A stretch of DNA of 38,029 nt from a virus (IMGVR_UViG_3300025114_000010:1-38029); one strand, 5' to 3'; numbered from the stretch's first letter, positions 1,728 to 18,922 are shown. Numbers and translations: made by a program. The notes: generated from the letters alone by a model not told the origin.

Positions 1728-1976
1728 TCATTGTCCGACCATGTATGTTGCAGTTGAGCCGACGCCCAACCGTGATGTACGTCTCAAAGGTGACATGCCC
1801 ATAGCCCTAGTCTTTAGGGCAATTGTTCGCATCATGGCAGCCATTGACCCGTGAGGATGTTTTGGCTTTTTGCGACCTTTGTAAAACAGTGCAATCAATT
1901 CCTTGATTGGCACATCTTTCCTGCTGGCACACACATGATTGTATAGCAACAGCTCATTGTCGTTTAGTTTTACCAT
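1728..1976 (-). CDS. hypothetical basic protein, possibly winged-helix DNA-binding
   Basis: Overlaps the helicase stop; GGAGG RBS; basic 82-aa protein; fold is a guess. Confidence 0.6.
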   Translation of the reverse strand: MVKLNDNELLLYNHVCASRKDVPIKELIALFYKGRKKPKHPHGSMAAMMRTIALKTRAMGMSPLRRTSRLGVGSTATYMVGQ

Positions 1977-3637
1977 TCTTCCTCCTCCAGCCAGTTTCTG
2001 ATATCACCCAGAGCCATGTCACTGACTGTCTTCTTGTTACGCAGGTTGCGCAGAATTTTAGCATCAACAGAGCCGACACCGATCAAGTCAGTATACACTA
2101 CGCCACCTGTCACGCCGATCCTATGGATCCTGTCTTCAGACTGCCAACGCTCAATTGAGTTGTCGGAGTTTGAATAGTAGACTGCTCGTCTGCACTGGCC
2201 TTGAAGATTAAGGCCAACACCACCAGCTGCAGGATTGCTGACAAAGTATCTGGGAGAACCTTCCTCTTCACTGAGGAATCGCTCAATCGCTAGTTTGCGC
2301 TCTTTGTCGCTGGTTGCCCCATAATAAGTGACACAGTCGTCACCAAGCATGGACTTGATTAACTCAATGTCCTTAACAAAGCGTGCCCATATGATGACCT
2401 TTCCTTCAATACTTTCCAGGCACTCTGCCAGAGCTGTGAGGCGTGGGTTCTTCTTCTGACCCTTTTCAATCATGATGATGTTCTCATCATCATCAACCAT
2501 AAACCCGCTGGCAATTTGCTGCATGCGCATCACTGCCACAGCAGCATTAGAAGCAGTTGAGATTTCACCAGAATCAATCTGGGTGATAAGCAACTTCTTC
2601 ATCTCCTTGATCATGGACCTCTGCTTCTTACTCAGATCAAATTTCCATCGATCGTAAGCCTTCGGCAAGATGCCAATGTCTTCCTTGGTGGCCCTGAATG
2701 TGTAGGACTTAACTTTCTCTTGCAGCCTCTCAACATTCTTATGGCCAACTATGGCTCGTCCTTCAAAGCCTCCCATGATGCAATACTCATTGCGGAAGGC
2801 TGTGATGTAACGGATGCCTATGATCCTTTCATCAAGCCACTTGAACTGGGCCCACTCTTCTGTCAGGTCTTTGGCGATTGGGGTACCAGTTAAGGCCAAG
2901 CGATAGTCAACACAGTTGCCAAGCTCATTGGCAGCTTTCCATCGTTTGGATTTAGCATTCTTGATGGTGTGGCTTTCGTCCACAATCATCAGCACCTTGC
3001 CTTTGTGGCTCTTGATGAACTCTAAACAAGTGAGCCTGCCCTTTGCAGTCTTTATGCCATCAATGTTGATGGCCAACCACTTAAGGTCCTCTCCCTTGCA
3101 CAGCTCTTCTGGCAGCAGGAACAGTGGACAGATTAGGTTCAACTGGGGCCAAACTCCGGCTGTAAACTCACAGCCTGAATGTGTAGGGAGCTGCTCATCC
3201 ACCCACTGGCGGTGAACACCCTTGGGGGCAACCACCAATACACCAGTGATTTTGCCAGCACAAAACAGCCCACCAGCATGGTCAATTGCGACCTTTGTCT
3301 TGCCGGTTCCCTGCTCCATGAACAGAGCAAATGATTTCTGGGCTGTGCAACGCTCCAGAGCTATGATTTGATGGTTGTAGGGTGTGGTCTTCTGTTCATA
3401 TGGTGCAAAACCTAAGGCAGTGCTGAGATCGTCCCCCTGCACCAAAATAGGGTCCTTTATATCAAGGATTATGCCACCCTCCTTCAAGACCTCCATATTG
3501 TGGTCAGTAGCCTCCATCTTGAGGCCACCTCCCTTGAGCCATTTGCGCCGACCCTCCAGCCGTGGCAACACCATCATGATTGCTGGGGTCATCCGTGTGT
3601 GGAGGGTGGCATATTTGCCTTCAATTGTCAACAACAT
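1970..3637 (-). CDS. SNF2-family (SF2) helicase
   Basis: Motifs MEQGTGKT, IVDESH, LTGTP, GGVGLNLQ and QSEDRIHRIG; start moved to ATG 3637 (GGAGG RBS) because the longer ORF runs through a palindromic repeat. Confidence 0.92.
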   Translation of the reverse strand: MLLTIEGKYATLHTRMTPAIMMVLPRLEGRRKWLKGGGLKMEATDHNMEVLKEGGIILDIKDPILVQGDDLSTALGFAPYEQKTTPYNHQIIALERCTAQKSFALFMEQGTGKTKVAIDHAGGLFCAGKITGVLVVAPKGVHRQWVDEQLPTHSGCEFTAGVWPQLNLICPLFLLPEELCKGEDLKWLAINIDGIKTAKGRLTCLEFIKSHKGKVLMIVDESHTIKNAKSKRWKAANELGNCVDYRLALTGTPIAKDLTEEWAQFKWLDERIIGIRYITAFRNEYCIMGGFEGRAIVGHKNVERLQEKVKSYTFRATKEDIGILPKAYDRWKFDLSKKQRSMIKEMKKLLITQIDSGEISTASNAAVAVMRMQQIASGFMVDDDENIIMIEKGQKKNPRLTALAECLESIEGKVIIWARFVKDIELIKSMLGDDCVTYYGATSDKERKLAIERFLSEEEGSPRYFVSNPAAGGVGLNLQGQCRRAVYYSNSDNSIERWQSEDRIHRIGVTGGVVYTDLIGVGSVDAKILRNLRNKKTVSDMALGDIRNWLEEEEW

Positions 3638-3650
3638 AACTTGTATCCTC

Positions 3651-3795
3651 CAAGGTTCGGAGTTCGCTTTTTTCATTGTATTCCAAAACTCCAGGGAATT
3701 ATTATTTCTTTTCTTAATTCCCTGAAAGTCTTGAAACAAGTAAAAATTACGAACTCCGAACCTCACTTTTGTGTGAAACCAAGGATTTAGTTTTT
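3651..3795. repeat. imperfect palindromic element, copy 1 (inverted relative to copy 2)
   Basis: AGGTTCGGAGTTCG (3653-3666) and CGAACTCCGAACCT (3750-3763) form a terminal IR; the reverse complement aligns with 18779-18922. Confidence 0.92.
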
Positions 3796-3807
3796 CGGTG
3801 AATTCGC

Positions 3808-4194
3808 TCACCGAGCCTCCACGAACTTGTGTTGGATGTCCCAACGAAGGTGATGGCTCTCGCCACCGGAAGCTAAATAGTCCTCATACAAGATACCGGG
3901 ATTGTCCTGGACAATCTTGAATGCATGCCAGCCATGCGACCCTGCTTGTCTGGGATTGCCGTCAACGATGGGAAAGAGACCCTTCCCGTTGTTGCCAGCT
4001 GGACGTCCCCGGTTGTCGTCCTTGGGGCCAAGAGTCTTGGCCAGCTCAGTTGTGCGCCTAATGCCAGACTCCCTGTTTGAGAACTTCTTGACGGATGGGA
4101 TGATGTCGCCGGTCTGTTTCTCAACCTCAATAGCAAGGTTGTTGTATTCAGCAGCGAGTTGCTTTAAAGTCAGTCTTGAATAATCTTTGGCCAT
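3808..4194 (-). CDS. hypothetical protein
   Basis: Start MAKDYSRL after a GAGGAGG RBS; C-terminal NPRQAGS...HLRWD segment. Confidence 0.8.
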   Translation of the reverse strand: MAKDYSRLTLKQLAAEYNNLAIEVEKQTGDIIPSVKKFSNRESGIRRTTELAKTLGPKDDNRGRPAGNNGKGLFPIVDGNPRQAGSHGWHAFKIVQDNPGILYEDYLASGGESHHLRWDIQHKFVEAR

Positions 4195-4240
4195 TATGGC
4201 CTCCTCTTCTTTGGTTGGTGGGCACTTGGCCCTGATACCC

Positions 4241-4274
4241 AAAAACCCCGGCCACCTCCTAAGAGGCTCCGGGG
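4241..4274 (-). terminator. putative intrinsic terminator after the DUF932-like gene
   Basis: Minus strand CCCCGG-AGCCTC-TTAG-GAGGTGG-CCGGGG followed by TTTTT. Confidence 0.7.
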
Positions 4275-4301
4275 CATGGGAGCGTTTAGCTCGCTGTTTT
4301 A

Positions 4302-5255
4302 TTAAGCTGCCATTTCGTACAGCTTTTGCTCAACATCAATCTTATGCCGAGCGATGTCGCCGACCCATGCACGATGCATGCGAGTGGCGTTGTTGCGTCC
4401 AGCAACGTGATCACCCCAGTGGGTGACACCGTTTAGGACTCCCCACCCAGTACCAGGAGCAGCACCAGGAGCATTGTTGATTGAGTTGATGATCTCGCTC
4501 AACACTTTGGGCTGGGACTCAGGGAGCATGATGTCGTCGTAGGCTTCGCTCTCTGCGACCTTGGGTATTATCGTGGGCACGATCACCTCACGAACAGCAT
4601 CCTCAATGCCGATTTTGAGTTTTGAGATTGTCTTAAATCTCTTCTCGGCAATAATCAGATGATTGTGAGCCTCGTTGACCTTCTCCTTGGCAGCTGCGAC
4701 GTCGAACTCTGTCAGATGGTTCTGAGAGTAGTTCAGGTCGGAGGAGCCTTCAGCCATCGCCAGCGTGTTAGCGCAGACGACCCTGACAGTGGTGGTGCGG
4801 ATCTGAGTGGACCTGCCAACTTCCATCGGTGATGTGATCAGCAGGTAGCCATGCACTTCGTCACCCTTGCGGACTGAGAAGGTATGGTCCAATTTGGCCA
4901 GACCCCAGACAGTGCGACCGCCACGCAACGAGCCAGCTGTCTCCAGCTTGGCCCCACCAGCTTCAACATACTCGCGCATGAAGCTGATAGTCTCTTCCGG
5001 CTGGAACGGTGTCCATGCTCCGGAGCAAACACTCATGACCTTGTTGTCTGTGTTACGGGTCAGAGCGAACTTGTCATCGACTGGCAGGGCATCACCGTTG
5101 GGCAACTTCGCAACCAGCGGCAACTTCTCAAGACGCCAGTTAAGGCCAGCAGCCTCAAGCATCTCTTCAACGCTAACGTCTTGATCGACCCTAGCACCAA
5201 GTCCATGCCAAGGGACTGCACCTGCGTAGGCCATTGTTTCAACTTGATGTGACAT
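4302..5255 (-). CDS. DUF932/DUF945-family phage/plasmid protein
   Basis: MSHQVETMAYAGAVPWHGLG, AGLNW, ETAGSLRGGR, TTVRVVCANTL and GTGWGVLNGVT are family hallmarks; start ATG 5255 after GGAG. Confidence 0.88.
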   Translation of the reverse strand: MSHQVETMAYAGAVPWHGLGARVDQDVSVEEMLEAAGLNWRLEKLPLVAKLPNGDALPVDDKFALTRNTDNKVMSVCSGAWTPFQPEETISFMREYVEAGGAKLETAGSLRGGRTVWGLAKLDHTFSVRKGDEVHGYLLITSPMEVGRSTQIRTTTVRVVCANTLAMAEGSSDLNYSQNHLTEFDVAAAKEKVNEAHNHLIIAEKRFKTISKLKIGIEDAVREVIVPTIIPKVAESEAYDDIMLPESQPKVLSEIINSINNAPGAAPGTGWGVLNGVTHWGDHVAGRNNATRMHRAWVGDIARHKIDVEQKLYEMAA

Positions 5256-5272
5256 ATTAGTCTCCAATGTTT

Positions 5273-5436
5273 GAGGGAGGCACTTACCGGGAAGGGTCCG
5301 GCCACCACAGCCTGAACTTCTCCAGTGCCTTTCCAGTGTGTATGCATCACCTCTGGTCCAGCGCGTCGCCTCTCGGAACTGGCGCATTGCGTTATTTGGT
5401 CGTGTCAATGCTACCTTCCCGGTAAGTGCCTCTCTC
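5273..5436 (-). ncRNA. candidate structured RNA closed by a 23-bp stem
   Basis: IR arms 5273-5295 and 5414-5436 (22/23 complementary) enclose 118 nt with internal helices; strand inferred from operon direction. Confidence 0.5.
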
Positions 5437-5441
5437 GGTGT

Positions 5442-5505
5442 GGGCAAGCTCATCAGTGCAGGATGCCCGTGACCTGCAGACCGGGGCGATGCCCCGGTTT
5501 CGCCT
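5442..5505 (-). ncRNA. hammerhead ribozyme, type II (HH1)
   Basis: AGGC-GAAA-CCGGGGC(auc)GCCCCGG-UC^-UGCAGG(ucacgggcau)CCUGCA-CUGAUGA-GCUU; loop I GGGCA pairs with the 3' tail UGCCC; predicted cut between 5479 and 5478. Confidence 0.93.
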
Positions 5506-5512
5506 TTTGGTT

Positions 5513-5713
5513 TCAGGTAAACGCTTTGTCCTGGCATTTCTGACACATTCCGCTGATGGTGTACTCTTTCTTTGAGAGATCATCAGTGAACTCTTTGGCA
5601 TGGCCGTCGCACATCATGCACATGCCAGCTGCGATCGTTTCGACACGATCCTTCCCCATCATGTTGCCGAGGAAGGCATCAATGCCATAGACTTTAGGAG
5701 TTGCTTCAGTCAT
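5513..5713 (-). CDS. small zinc-ribbon-like protein
   Basis: CMMC...EYTISGMCQKCQD (two CxxC); start ATG 5713 after GAGGAG; lies between HH2 and HH1. Confidence 0.8.
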   Translation of the reverse strand: MTEATPKVYGIDAFLGNMMGKDRVETIAAGMCMMCDGHAKEFTDDLSKKEYTISGMCQKCQDKAFT

Positions 5714-5736
5714 TTTCTTTCTCCTCATAGTAGTAA

Positions 5737-5798
5737 GCCCTGTCTCATCAGTTGGGGGAGGGCAGATCCCCAAGACCGACCCGAAGGTCGGTTTCGAC
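5737..5798 (-). ncRNA. hammerhead ribozyme, type II (HH2)
   Basis: GUC-GAAA-CCGACC(uucg)GGUCGG-UC^-UUGGGG(aucugcccuc)CCCCAA-CUGAUGA-GAC; loop GCCCU pairs with tail AGGGC; predicted cut between 5774 and 5773. Confidence 0.95.
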
Positions 5799-6139
5799 TA
5801 AATTTGGGTGAATCCGAAAGAGGTGCACAGCCACTTTGAGCCGTCTTCCTTCTCGACGATGTCGCCAACGCTCATGGAGTGAAGGTCGGCGTGGCGGCGA
5901 ACCATCTTCTCGTCAACCTCGCTCCAGCGGTTCATGACCGCAAAGCCAACTTCGAGGTCGTCAGTGCTGACATCCGCAACGTGATTGTAGAGGCCAAGCT
6001 CCTGTGCCTTCTCAATCTTGCCGAACGTGGCGTCGAGGTAGGCTGGGTAAAACTCCGGAACAGGCTCGTTGTTGCGGCTGGCCATATTGACCTGATTGAC
6101 TTGAGGAGTGGTGAGAACGATCTGGTGGACTTTCAACAT
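5798..6139 (-). CDS. YodL-like domain protein
   Basis: C-terminal HSMSVGDIV...WLCTSFGF resembles the YodL-like signature; start ATG 6139 after GGGAG; lies between HH3 and HH2. Confidence 0.72.
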   Translation of the reverse strand: MLKVHQIVLTTPQVNQVNMASRNNEPVPEFYPAYLDATFGKIEKAQELGLYNHVADVSTDDLEVGFAVMNRWSEVDEKMVRRHADLHSMSVGDIVEKEDGSKWLCTSFGFTQI

Positions 6140-6162
6140 GATGTTGACTCCCTTTAAGGTGG

Positions 6163-6228
6163 TGCCCTGACTCATCAGTGTGGGGAGGGCAGATCCCACA
6201 GACCGGGCAACGTGCCCGGTTTCGTCAG
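6163..6228 (-). ncRNA. hammerhead ribozyme, type II (HH3)
   Basis: UGAC-GAAA-CCGGGCA(cgu)UGCCCGG-UC^-UGUGGG(aucugcccuc)CCCACA-CUGAUGA-GUCA; loop UGCCCU pairs with tail AGGGCA; predicted cut between 6201 and 6200. Confidence 0.95.
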
Positions 6229-6689
6229 ATGCGCTTGATGCGCTTGATGGCAACGGCTCTCATCGCACGACCTTTTGTCCAGTCGTGGTTGACTCCGTCA
6301 ATAACCGCCAGAACGTGACCTCTTGTATAAATCAAGTAGGTCTCGCCATCCGCCCAGACCTTGTTGAAGCGGTCCATGTGGTGGGTGGTAACTGATCGTA
6401 GATTCTTGTGGTTGCCAGGATACTGGCTGATGAACTCTTGCTGGTCCACCGTCTCCATTTCGAAGCCAAACTCCTTGAGAGCTGAAGACATGTCCCATAC
6501 GGATGAGCCTCTTCCTTTTTTGCGGCCAGCATGTTCCAGAGCAGTGTGGGCAACTAGGTAGTCAACGTTGCAGACTGCTGCCAGAGCTTTGACCGTGCAG
6601 TCATTGCTTTCTCCGATAGAGTCAGCAGCAACCTGCATGGAGTTGAACTTGTCAGTCATGATGCGTTTATCAGAAGCGATGCCAACCAT
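6225..6689 (-). CDS. phage early protein, possibly a Cys/His (papain-like) enzyme
   Basis: GAGGAGG RBS; NDCTVKAL...RGHVLAVIDG..HDW spacing is reminiscent of Cys-His-Asp folds; lies between HH4 and HH3. Confidence 0.75.
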   Translation of the reverse strand: MVGIASDKRIMTDKFNSMQVAADSIGESNDCTVKALAAVCNVDYLVAHTALEHAGRKKGRGSSVWDMSSALKEFGFEMETVDQQEFISQYPGNHKNLRSVTTHHMDRFNKVWADGETYLIYTRGHVLAVIDGVNHDWTKGRAMRAVAIKRIKRI

Positions 6690-6713
6690 GATGGCCTCCT
6701 CTTCTTTGATTGG

Positions 6714-6777
6714 TGGGCTGTCTCATCAGTTGGGGTAGCCCGTTTCCCCAAGATCGGGCAGTGTGCCCGATTTCGAC
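6714..6777 (-). ncRNA. hammerhead ribozyme, type II (HH4)
   Basis: GUC-GAAA-UCGGGCA(cac)UGCCCGA-UC^-UUGGGG(aaacgggcua)CCCCAA-CUGAUGA-GAC; loop GGGCU pairs with tail AGCCC; AUC triplet; predicted cut between 6752 and 6751. Confidence 0.93.
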
Positions 6778-6784
6778 TTTGTTG

Positions 6785-6917
6785 TTTGACTCGCAGAGTT
6801 TGCGTGCCCCTCGCTGGGGTCGGATCTCTTGCCGGAAACCAGGAACCGTCTTTTGGGGGTCAACCCACCTGCGAGGATCAAGAGCCATCGGGCCAGGTGC
6901 CGGTTCCTACCGGACCC
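6785..6917 (-). ncRNA. candidate structured 5' leader RNA
   Basis: GC-rich tract between the promoter and HH4 with complementary pairs AGGAACCG/CGGUUCCU, CACCUG/CAGGUG, CUCUUG/CAAGAG, CUCGCAG/CUGCGAG and CCCC/GGGG. Confidence 0.45.
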
Positions 6918-6919
6918 TA

Positions 6920-7065
6920 GTATTATCGCTGAAAATGGCACAAAAGAAAAGTGTTTTTTCACTAATTCTTAGATTTTCTTTTTAGCCTTTTCAACGATTT
7001 AACGATTTTCTTCTCTGCCAATTTGAAAAACCTTTCATTTTATATAAAACTGGGGCATAATAGGC
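6920..7065. promoter_or_regulatory. divergent promoter region
   Basis: AT-rich gap between oppositely oriented arms; -10-like GATAAT (minus, 6927-6922) and CATAAT (plus, 7056-7061). Confidence 0.65.
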
Positions 7066-7118
7066 GTGCTGGATCCCCAACAGCACCATACCTTTTGGAT
7101 GGGGAATGAAAGGAGGCC

Positions 7119-7919
7119 ATGATGGCCAAAGCAATCACTAAGAAGAAGTCAACCGCTGTCTCAGTTGCTAATGCGTTTGACGGAGGCAACACAGGCCTCG
7201 AAAATGTAGGGGCCAACGATCTACTGGTTCCTCGCCTCTCGATTCTGCAGGCGCTCTCACCGCAAATCTCCAAGAAGAAGGCTGAGTACATTGAAGGTGC
7301 CCAGATTGGTGACATCTGCGATATTGGCACTGGTGAGGTTTTCAACGATGGCATTTTATTCTTGCCGGTGTTTTACCGCAAGGATTATCTTGAGTGGGCA
7401 CCTCGTGCCAGCGGCCAAGGCTTGGTCAACATCCACTCTGACCCTGCCATCTTGGATCAGACTACCCGCAACGAGAAGAAGCAGCCAATTCTTCCGAATG
7501 GGAATTACATTGCAGAGACTGCTCAGTTCTTCGGACTCAATCTGACAGCCGAAGGACGCAAGTGTTTTCTGCCAATGGCGTCGACCCAGCTCAAGAAGGC
7601 TCGTAAGTGGCTCACACTTGCCACTGGCGAAAAGCTGACGAGGGTCGATGGTTCAACTTATACGCCGAAGCTCTTTTATCGGTGCTACCATCTCACAACC
7701 GCTGAGGAGTCCAACTCTGAAGGCGAATGGGCTGGTTGGAAAATTGACCGTGGCGCCACGCTGCCTGAATTGGAGGCAGAGGGTGTTGTGGCTGATTGGC
7801 AGTCAATCAAATCTGACTGTGAAGGCTTCCTTGAGACTTTGATCAAGGGTAGTGCCAACGCTGATGTTGCGAGCATGCAACCGGCATCATCGACCTCCAA
7901 CAATGAGGAGGATATGTGA
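7119..7919 (+). CDS. phage replication-module protein, probable ssDNA-binding protein
   Basis: AAGGAGG RBS; GLEN...PRLSILQALSPQ and YLEWAPR motifs; acidic C-terminal tail (NNEEDM); first gene of the replication arm. Confidence 0.65.
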   Translation: MMAKAITKKKSTAVSVANAFDGGNTGLENVGANDLLVPRLSILQALSPQISKKKAEYIEGAQIGDICDIGTGEVFNDGILFLPVFYRKDYLEWAPRASGQGLVNIHSDPAILDQTTRNEKKQPILPNGNYIAETAQFFGLNLTAEGRKCFLPMASTQLKKARKWLTLATGEKLTRVDGSTYTPKLFYRCYHLTTAEESNSEGEWAGWKIDRGATLPELEAEGVVADWQSIKSDCEGFLETLIKGSANADVASMQPASSTSNNEEDM

Positions 7920-10665: not shown

Positions 10666-10826
10666 TGTTGGGCAAATTCTGTCCAGAGCTGCCATTTGAT
10701 CTGGAAGAATTATTCTGGTTGGGGATGGACAGGATTGAGTGGAAATTCAAGATCGGTACAAATGTGATTATGAGCGTGGTCGAGCGCAACCTTGCCTTGG
10801 TCACCCAGCTAGTGAGGGTGCCATGA
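10665..10826 (+). CDS. hypothetical 53-aa protein (not in ORF track)
   Basis: MLGKFCPELPFDLEELFW...; coupled at both ends (TAATG and ATGA overlaps). Confidence 0.55.
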   Translation: MLGKFCPELPFDLEELFWLGMDRIEWKFKIGTNVIMSVVERNLALVTQLVRVP

Positions 10827-11263
10827 CCTCAATCGTCGTCGATATGGATGGTACGCTGTCCAACTGCAAACACCGCCAGCACCACGCAGAGCAAGGCCAA
10901 TGGGACGAGTTCCACTCTAAGCTGTCAGAGGACAAGACCTACTATGACGTGCAGTGGCTACTTGAACGGTTGCCTGATTCAATCCAGGTCATCGTCTTGA
11001 CTGGCCGCAACGAGACCTATCGCTCAAAGACCTTTGAGTGGCTGAGCGACAAAGGCATATTCGTTGACATGTTGCTGATGAGGCCCGATGGTGACTTCCG
11101 GCCAGATCATGAGCTAAAACCGAAACTGCTGGAGGAGGCGTTTGGTTCAAAAGACCTCGTCATTGACAATGTCATGTTTGTGCTTGATGACCGGGACAAG
11201 GTCGTTGAGGCTTGGCGCAATTATGGTTTGGACTGCTGGCAGGTCCGGCCAGAAGGCTACTGA
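10823..11263 (+). CDS. HAD phosphatase, similar to the T4 PNK (PseT) 3'-phosphatase domain
   Basis: VVDMDGTL, LTGR, MRPDGDFRPDHELK and DDRDKVVEAWR..GLDCWQV; no kinase domain. Confidence 0.88.
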   Translation: MTSIVVDMDGTLSNCKHRQHHAEQGQWDEFHSKLSEDKTYYDVQWLLERLPDSIQVIVLTGRNETYRSKTFEWLSDKGIFVDMLLMRPDGDFRPDHELKPKLLEEAFGSKDLVIDNVMFVLDDRDKVVEAWRNYGLDCWQVRPEGY

Positions 11264-18763: not shown

Positions 18764-18778
18764 TTGTGGAAAAAACCA

Positions 18779-18922
18779 AAAAGTTAAGTCCTTGTTTTCA
18801 TTGAATACTGAGGTTCGGAGTTCGCTTTTTTTGCTTGTTTCAAGACTTTCAGGGAATTAATAAAGAGAAAGTAATTCCTAAGAGTTTTGGAATACAATGA
18901 AAAAAGCGAACTCCGAACCTTG
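18779..18922. repeat. imperfect palindromic element, copy 2
   Basis: 21-bp perfect IR AGGTTCGGAGTTCGCTTTTTT (18811-18831) / AAAAAAGCGAACTCCGAACCT (18900-18920), with inner imperfect arms. Confidence 0.92.

What the first reader, a model, noticed from the sequence alone, without database searches (positions are those of the whole stretch)
5442..6777. Array of four type II hammerhead ribozymes punctuating the early operon, one gene per interval
Seen: four minus-strand elements (5442-5505, 5737-5798, 6163-6228, 6714-6777) each contain the complete hammerhead core in type II order: stem II 5' arm, GAAA, stem III, UC, stem I, CUGAUGA, stem II 3' arm. Stem sequences differ between copies but always pair, which is compensatory change. 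Exactly one RBS-bearing gene lies between each pair. HH2 and HH3 begin on the upstream gene's stop codon (TAGTC, TGAC), and HH1 begins 8 nt after one. Known: hammerheads self-cleave after NUH, and type II forms have been reported in phage and bacterial intergenic regions. Inference: the first leftward transcript processes itself, without proteins, into monocistronic RNAs of 551, 427 and 295 nt (cuts at 6752/6751, 6201/6200, 5774/5773, 5479/5478). This would be analogous to RNase III processing of T7 early RNA but independent of the host.
Basis: partly seen in the sequence, partly recalled or inferred. Interest (0 to 1): 0.93.

Follow-up and report, generated by a model that had tools for sequence, protein, structure and literature searches.

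The report
Four hammerhead ribozymes between phage genes
An uncultured phage carries four intact hammerhead RNA motifs, one at each boundary of three small genes, which likely cut one long message into single-gene pieces with folded ends; this layout has been known in phages since 2011, so this is a clean new example rather than a new kind of thing.

Summary
Observation confirmed. Four type II hammerheads lie on the minus strand with perfect cores, and all 68 of 68 stem cells pair. Predicted cuts follow 6752, 6201, 5774 and 5479. Shuffles give 0.04 per window. This scan found the same kind before (105 findings, at least 88 genomes), and IMG/VR holds longer arrays. What this locus adds is a comparison. 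Among the nine nearest relatives, the same region carries hammerheads (2 phages), promoter-like motifs each followed by a 5' hairpin (5), or an uncatalogued repeated RNA motif (2). So the ribozymes likely stand in for internal promoters, giving each gene a protected 5' end in front of its ribosome site. Cleavage, transcription, timing and purpose are untested here. New member of a known kind; interest 0.3.

The parts
6922..6950 (-). Promoter-like motif (TTTTCT-N17-GATAAT), the only one of its kind in the leftward early region; recurs before gene units in relatives
   Evidence: same 22-nt stretch twice in L002 and a 78% match in L140. Not flagged by the sigma-70 scan. Function inferred.
6778..6915 (-). 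ORF-less leader with a 5' hairpin; would be released as a ~160-nt RNA by the first cut (start site estimated)
   Evidence: fold z = -1.68, not significant; no Rfam hit; no homologue in 248 fetched loci or cultured phages
6715..6777 (-). Type II hammerhead a; predicted cut 6752/6751; pseudoknot 6741-6737 with 6719-6715
   Evidence: not listed by Rfam up to E = 10
6225..6689 (-). ORF A, 154 aa, conserved phage protein of unknown function; faint peptidase C39-like signal only
   Evidence: phrog_3754 E 9e-16; PF03412 16.5 bits, below cut-off 22; Atlas neighbours unnamed viral clusters
6163..6226 (-). Type II hammerhead b; stem II overlaps ORF A's stop; predicted cut 6201/6200; pseudoknot 6191-6186 with 6168-6163
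   Evidence: RF02276 31.7 bits
5798..6139 (-). ORF B, 113 aa, conserved protein with a weak YodL-like C-terminus
   Evidence: 15 proteins at E <= 0.001, one near-identical and 14 at 45-60%; PF14191 14.6 bits, below cut-off 24
5737..5798 (-). Type II hammerhead c; stem II overlaps ORF B's stop; predicted cut 5774/5773; pseudoknot 5763-5759 with 5741-5737
   Evidence: RF02276 33.0 bits
5513..5713 (-). ORF C, 66 aa, small protein with two CxxC motifs
   Evidence: phrog_19722 E 4e-8; CxxC motifs read from the translation
5442..5504 (-). Type II hammerhead d; predicted cut 5479/5478; pseudoknot 5468-5464 with 5446-5442
   Evidence: RF02276 36.7 bits
5273..5436 (-). Structured spacer: 23-bp, 96% inverted repeat enclosing 118 nt, between hammerhead d and the DUF932 ribosome site; candidate RNase III site or small RNA
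   Evidence: fold z = -3.96; absent in L140, where a hammerhead abuts the DUF932 SD; no homologue found
4302..5255 (-). DUF932 gene (317 aa), the message following the last cut
   Evidence: PF06067 E 5.5e-30
4241..4274 (-). GC-rich hairpin plus five T after DUF932; possible end of the transcript
   Evidence: read from the sequence; fold z = -1.81; not flagged by the terminator scan

Best explanation
The four motifs are pseudoknotted type II hammerhead ribozymes that likely cut a single leftward phage transcript as it is made, and so would give each small gene its own mRNA with a folded, nuclease-resistant front end just before its ribosome-binding site, probably doing the job that internal promoters do in related phages. 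Shown from sequence: complete cores, covarying stems and pseudoknots; one gene per interval; cuts 24, 24 and 34 nt after the upstream stop and 60-62 nt before the next start. Inferred: one promoter at 6950-6922 drives the whole unit, and cleavage yields pieces of ~160 (leader), 551, 427, 295 and ~1,240 nt (DUF932). Because stem II is the open stem, each cut leaves the stem III hairpin with a 2',3'-cyclic phosphate on the upstream piece, and a 5'-OH plus the stem I hairpin/pseudoknot on the downstream piece. Both ends of every message would thus be structured. The unit 'ribozyme + A/C-rich spacer + SD + ORF' behaves as a module that can be added or lost without needing its own promoter.
For: Anatomy. 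Precedent: three tandem arrangements cleaved completely in vitro and one in E. coli (PMC3088659); three type II hammerheads were found cleaved in D. vulgaris cells (PMC8782182 abstract). Position is general: among 135 distinct hammerheads from 100 pattern-matched IMG/VR loci, 110 have a stop triplet within 8 nt before the core (28 in a control window), 109 have an SD plus start within 60 nt after it, and 96 have a pseudoknot of 4 bp or more (tail-swapped control mean 29.5, max 39). Substitution for promoters: the window has 4 hammerheads and 1 promoter motif in this region, and L145 has 9 and 1. Hammerhead-free L141, L142, L143 and L148 have 4, 2, 3 and 2 motifs, and L140 is mixed. Promoter-started units in those relatives mostly begin with a 5' hairpin, an A/C-rich spacer and the SD, the same order as the hammerhead 3' products. 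ORF A's closest homologue (L002, 64%) has its own promoter motif and a terminator-like hairpin and no ribozyme. L140 has ORF A-hammerhead-DUF932 directly, so ORFs B and C look like added modules.
Against: No cleavage, transcription or stability data for this phage. Rfam gathering scores are not reached. The promoter motif is my own regular expression and was not picked up by the sigma-70 scan. The promoter-versus-ribozyme contrast rests on 10 related, non-independent contigs of unequal length with an unresolved tree; L144 (1 motif, 0 hammerheads, only 1.8 kb examined) does not fit, and one L140 motif lies in a coding region. Folding models show no gain in SD accessibility on cleavage (unpaired fraction 0.44/0.44, 0.52/0.44, 0.64/0.67, 0.57/0.51 before/after), so a translation-boosting role is unsupported. 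Pseudoknot-blind models give stem I only 0.1-0.4 probability for the copies at 5479 and 5774. The genes do not need the ribozymes: 2 of 44 ORF A loci carry one, one of them the window's own sequence, and the ORF B homologue L260 has none. That 5'-OH ends resist 5'-end-dependent RNase E attack is recalled, not checked in a paper here.
Confidence: 0.6

Rival explanations
1. The ribozymes cut, but the purpose is to shorten or grade expression: cleavage exposes ends that speed decay of some pieces, so accessory genes are switched off after a brief burst (glmS-like logic without a ligand).
For: Self-cleavage triggers decay for glmS, and differential stability of processed pieces is a published hypothesis (PMC6765202 section 13 passage). 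3' UTRs after cleavage are only 24-34 nt.
Against: Both new ends carry hairpins, and the 3' product mirrors the 5' hairpin-spacer-SD start of promoter-driven units in relatives, which points to protection. The four copies have identical geometry, which gives little room for grading.
Confidence: 0.15
2. Cleavage of the nascent RNA insulates downstream genes from polarity: Rho or nucleases loaded on a poorly translated upstream accessory gene are cut off from the polymerase, which lets variable genes be swapped in safely.
For: One promoter motif serves four genes; gene content between ribozymes differs among relatives; each ribozyme sits right at a stop codon. The mechanism is inference from recalled Rho biology.
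Against: No direct test. It does not explain the first ribozyme, which has no gene upstream, only a ~140-nt leader. It is compatible with the best explanation rather than exclusive of it.
Confidence: 0.1
3. The released pieces are ligated into circles or spliced, by reverse hammerhead ligation or by host RtcB acting on 5'-OH and 2',3'-cyclic-phosphate ends.
For: The end chemistry is what RtcB joins (PMC8782182 passage). Each released piece carries the 3' half of one ribozyme and the 5' half of the next.
Against: The hybrid stem II is mismatched at its middle pair in 3 of 3 released pieces, which disfavours self-ligation here, although 36 of 41 neighbouring pairs in other loci are compatible at the first two pairs. 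Perreault et al. looked for circular or spliced products and found none. No RNA ligase was among the ORFs scanned.
Confidence: 0.08
4. The elements are mostly passengers or DNA-level repeats: duplicated ribozyme-SD modules that help exchange accessory genes by recombination, with cleavage slow or unimportant.
For: Copies are 60-74% identical direct repeats; a 33-nt SD leader is shared between ORF A and the gene at 4194 without any ribozyme; 77 of 80 gp34-bearing loci have no strict hammerhead.
Against: Stems and pseudoknots have diverged by compensatory change while the catalytic core is invariant, which is selection on RNA structure and catalysis, not on DNA identity.
Confidence: 0.07

Closest known systems
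Clustered hammerhead ribozymes flanking single genes in prophages (Perreault et al. 2011, PMC3088659; C. scindens, A. caulinodans, A. tumefaciens; read: abstract, sections 6, 11 part 1, 17 and passages; supplementary files not opened)
   Same: Several hammerheads close together, each flanking one gene or a short block; type II topology with the loop-I/3'-tail pseudoknot; the same proposed processing into single-gene mRNAs; flanked genes not constant.
   Different: Four copies rather than three; podovirus-like genome with no integrase among the ORFs scanned (contig incomplete); a ribozyme also precedes the first gene; relatives show the same region organised by internal promoter motifs, which I did not see discussed in the sections read.
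Rfam RF02276 Hammerhead_II
   Same: Three copies align end to end with the model, E 5e-5 to 1e-3; the two copies in relative L140 pass the gathering score (46.5, 42.1 bits).
   Different: The window's copies fall 0.3-5.3 bits short of the gathering score and one is not reported; they have a 3-bp stem II and a 6-bp stem I with a 10-nt loop.
RNase III processing of phage T7 early RNA (recalled, no paper read)
   Same: One long phage transcript cut between genes into mostly monocistronic messages with hairpin ends.
   Different: Cutting would be by the RNA itself, leaving 5'-OH and 2',3'-cyclic phosphate instead of 5'-phosphate and 3'-OH; no T7-like RNA polymerase among the ORFs scanned.
RiboJ-type synthetic ribozyme insulators (passage in PMC8750797; original Lou et al. 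2012 seen only as a reference entry)
   Same: A self-cleaving ribozyme just upstream of the RBS removes upstream RNA and standardises the 5' end.
   Different: Natural, repeated gene by gene, type II so the upstream piece also keeps a hairpin; no modelled gain in SD accessibility here.

Membership tests
Type II hammerhead ribozyme (structural class, Perreault 2011) | Catalytic core C3-U-G-A-N-G-A9, G12-A-A-A15.1, U16.1-H17 | tested here: met
   4 of 4 copies, no deviation
Type II hammerhead ribozyme (structural class, Perreault 2011) | Three stems around the core; stems I and III closed by loops, stem II open | tested here: met
   68 of 68 cells paired; 9 positions with two-sided changes
Type II hammerhead ribozyme (structural class, Perreault 2011) | Loop I / 3'-tail pseudoknot of 4 bp or more | tested here: met
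   5, 6, 5 and 5 bp in the same register, with compensatory changes
Type II hammerhead ribozyme (structural class, Perreault 2011) | Self-cleavage 3' of H17 giving 2',3'-cyclic phosphate and 5'-OH | not testable with these tools
   needs an in vitro or in vivo cleavage assay
Rfam RF02276 as curated (score threshold, not a biological feature) | Score at or above the gathering threshold of 37 bits | tested here: not met
   36.7, 33.0, 31.7 bits; fourth copy not listed up to E = 10. Filed under the structural class, not as a formal Rfam match.
Clustered phage/prophage hammerheads (Perreault 2011, Fig. 3) | Several hammerheads close together flanking single genes or short blocks | tested here: met
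   4 copies in 1.3 kb, one ORF per interval
Clustered phage/prophage hammerheads (Perreault 2011, Fig. 3) | Phage genome context | tested here: met
   major head, head-tail adaptor, tail, internal virion, DNA polymerase, primase and endolysin families
Clustered phage/prophage hammerheads (Perreault 2011, Fig. 3) | Frequent proximity to integrase / prophage state (common, not obligatory) | tested here: inconclusive
   no integrase among the 33 ORFs scanned against PHROGs; not every ORF was scanned and the contig ends inside a gene
T7-type RNase III processing of early RNA (works-like comparison only) | RNase III hairpins at gene boundaries | tested here: not met
   the four boundaries hold hammerheads; only the spacer at 5273-5436 has a long duplex

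The most novel reading that the evidence does not exclude
In this phage group one gene-boundary slot is filled interchangeably by three devices: an internal promoter with a 5' hairpin, a type II hammerhead, or a repeated ~55-nt RNA motif with no Rfam match (9 copies in L146/L147, stop codon to SD). That third motif, and perhaps the window's own 164-nt spacer or released leader, is an uncatalogued self-cleaving or processing RNA class, and the group is a natural experiment for what bacterial and phage self-cleaving ribozymes are for.
Probability: 0.1. Interest if true: 0.75.

Novelty: new member of a known kind. Interest (0 to 1): 0.3.

Why it matters
[quoted passage not shown] This locus does not change what is known to exist, but it is a compact test case: four canonical ribozymes in 1.3 kb under one likely promoter, and relatives that organise the same genes with promoter motifs instead. 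If the ribozymes replace internal promoters by making protected 5' ends, they are natural counterparts of synthetic ribozyme insulators and explain how phages add accessory genes as modules.

Tried and rejected
Rfam at gathering level over the window: 0 hits. Search for a fifth or variant hammerhead with type I/II/III descriptors and a profile of 7 copies: none. [quoted passage not shown] Homologues of the leader and spacer: none in cultured phages or fetched loci; the single outside IMG/VR match to a spacer arm (L261) is a chance match inside a coding region. Cultured relative with the array: none; the only blastn hit was to a DUF932 gene. Sequencing runs: no RNA holder was listed, which says nothing about expression, so no reads were laid. 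SD-unmasking by cleavage: not supported by folding models. Fixed link between these genes and ribozymes: rejected. Role of the HAD_PNKP phosphatase gene (10820-11263) in healing ribozyme ends: set aside, since it lies in the opposite-strand nucleotide-metabolism block next to ThyX and nothing ties it to the array; not tested further. Wider range for the L146/L147 motif: exact pattern found only in those two IMG/VR contigs. Literature: six answered searches listed no paper after 2011 devoted to phage hammerhead arrays or to their exchange with promoters; the library lacks most subscription papers, and Perreault's supplementary Dataset S1 was not opened, so related loci may already be listed there.

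Full report
Observation. The minus strand of 4500-7600 shows four elements in the order stem II arm, GAAA, stem III hairpin, UC, stem I hairpin, CUGAUGA, stem II arm. A type II descriptor on both strands of the 38-kb window finds these four and nothing else. One hundred dinucleotide shuffles give a mean of 0.04 hits at the loosest setting and none at stricter ones. Structure-anchored comparison shows invariant cores, identical geometry (3/8/6 bp, 10-nt loop I) and 68 of 68 cells paired, with 9 positions changed on both sides. Rfam gives no hit at gathering level. At E-value level RF02276 matches three copies at 36.7, 33.0 and 31.7 bits against a threshold of 37 and misses the fourth. A profile built from these copies and three from relatives finds no fifth copy. 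A second assembly is identical across the region.

Context. The window is a partial podovirus-like genome with replication genes rightward from 7119 and structural genes beyond; it ends inside a gene. The array lies in a leftward unit: promoter-like motif (6950-6922), ~140-nt ORF-less leader, ribozyme a, ORF A, ribozyme b, ORF B, ribozyme c, ORF C, ribozyme d, a structured spacer, DUF932, and a terminator-like hairpin at 4274-4241. ORFs A, B and C are real protein families of unknown function. 'Early' is an inference from this position and gene content. No cultured phage carries the region; gp34-like homologues in cultured phages are below 40% identity among the 30 rows listed.

How common. 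One exact geometry pattern matches about 290 IMG/VR stretches by the tool's estimate; 119 loci were returned, 80 with long flanks. Among them are arrays of 8 (L017, including an ArdA gene), 7 (L069), 5 (L088) and 4 (L076). I left out two loci of this same phage and de-duplicated, leaving 135 distinct hammerheads from 100 loci. Of these, 110 have a stop triplet just before the core (control 28), 109 have an SD and start within 60 nt after it, and 96 have a pseudoknot of at least 4 bp (tail-swapped control 29.5). The set is biased by my pattern. The scan's own index holds 105 earlier findings of this kind in at least 88 genomes, none on this genome or on look-alike DNA.

Relatives. Of 80 loci fetched with the neighbouring gp34-like gene, 3 have strict hammerheads, one being this phage. 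Among the nine closest (L140-L148, 48-63% identity), L140 has two and L145 nine. In L140 the order is promoter motif, ORF A, hammerhead, DUF932, so ORFs B and C with their ribozymes look like added modules and the window's spacer is absent. L141, L142, L143, L144 and L148 have no hammerhead in the region and carry 4, 2, 3, 1 and 2 copies of the promoter motif, against 1 in the window and 1 in L145. These promoter-started units mostly open with a hairpin, an A/C-rich spacer and the SD, the same order that a hammerhead 3' product would have. L146 and L147 have neither, but repeat a different motif at the stop-to-SD position (5 and 4 copies) with no Rfam match and two alternative folds. ORF A's closest homologue in L002 has its own promoter motif and terminator-like hairpin, while in L046 it is followed at once by a hammerhead. 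Against over-reading: these contigs are few, related and of unequal length; the tree does not resolve their order; the promoter motif is my own pattern; only 2 of 44 ORF A loci carry a hammerhead, one of them the window's own sequence; and the one other ORF B locus has none.

Mechanism. Shown: sequence and covariation of four complete ribozyme motifs and their fixed placement. Inferred from established hammerhead chemistry and published assays of the same arrangement (abstract): co-transcriptional cleavage at the four NUC sites, probability about 0.85. Inferred from anatomy and relatives: the purpose is to give each gene its own message with a structured 5'-OH end and a 3' hairpin, in place of an internal promoter, about 0.6 overall. 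Folding models give no support for improved ribosome access after cleavage and cannot model the pseudoknot. Rivals are faster decay, insulation from polarity, circularisation and passenger repeats. For circularisation, the hybrid stem II is mismatched in all three released pieces and no circles were detected in 2011.

Comparison with the known. Perreault et al. 2011 state that multiple hammerheads flank individual genes in prophage genomes, propose processing into single-gene mRNAs, and show cleavage for three tandem arrangements in vitro and one in E. coli (I read the abstract, sections 6, 11 part 1 and 17 and search passages, not the supplementary files). A 2019 review calls the purpose unresolved (passages). 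The elements meet every testable defining feature of the type II structural class and of the clustered phage arrangement, though not Rfam's score threshold. They work like T7 RNase III processing (recalled) and like synthetic ribozyme insulators (passage), but belong to neither. Papers PMC4033574 and PMC8782182 were seen as passages only.

Verdict. Real and correctly described, but a new member of a kind known since 2011 and met many times in this scan. The comparative view of promoters, hammerheads and an uncatalogued motif sharing one slot is the only added value; a word look-up for that idea returned nothing. Interest 0.3.

Noticed in passing
L146 (minus strand, 1770-5018, 5 copies) and L147 (minus strand, 2478-5215, 4 copies): A repeated ~55-nt motif sits between stop codon and SD exactly where relatives have hammerheads. 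It has a conserved bulged duplex with a variable central hairpin and an alternative fold that pairs the SD; no Rfam match; exact pattern only in these two IMG/VR contigs. Candidate RNase III site, translational switch or unknown ribozyme.
   Followed up: partly
window 5273-5436: 23-bp near-perfect inverted repeat enclosing a multi-hairpin 118-nt insert (z = -3.96); its 3' arm holds an anti-SD-like CCUCC next to the DUF932 ribosome site. No homologue found.
   Followed up: partly
window 6778-6915: ORF-less leader that the first ribozyme would release as a small RNA; L145, L146 and L147 also have long leaders before their first element, with no detectable sequence match to this one.
   Followed up: partly
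window 3653-3763: 49-nt imperfect inverted repeat just before the probable true start of the SNF2 helicase (near 3640, not the called TTG at 3844); an inverted repeat sits at the same place in L140, L142 and L143. Possible origin or regulatory element.
   Followed up: no
window 4191-4223 and 6686-6718: 33-nt, 94% identical SD leader shared by ORF A (after ribozyme a) and the gene at 4194-3808 (no ribozyme, no matching promoter motif).
   Followed up: partly
window 5442-6777: Stem II sequences alternate so that the hybrid stem II of each released fragment is mismatched (3 of 3), whereas 36 of 41 neighbouring pairs in other loci are compatible at the first two pairs. May be chance.
   Followed up: partly
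L017 1480-4660; L069 whole locus; L145 371-4924: Longer arrays of 8, 7 and 9 type II hammerheads; L017 includes an ArdA antirestriction gene, as in the published A. tumefaciens cluster; L145 copies have extended, bulged stem III.
   Followed up: partly
window 10820-11263: Stand-alone HAD_PNKP phosphatase domain gene (PF25109) in the nucleotide-metabolism block beside ThyX; could in principle act on cyclic-phosphate ends, no link shown.
   Followed up: no
window 18775-18922 and about 3650-3800: A 149-nt stretch near the helicase-proximal inverted repeat has an 85% identical second copy at 18775-18922.
   Followed up: no
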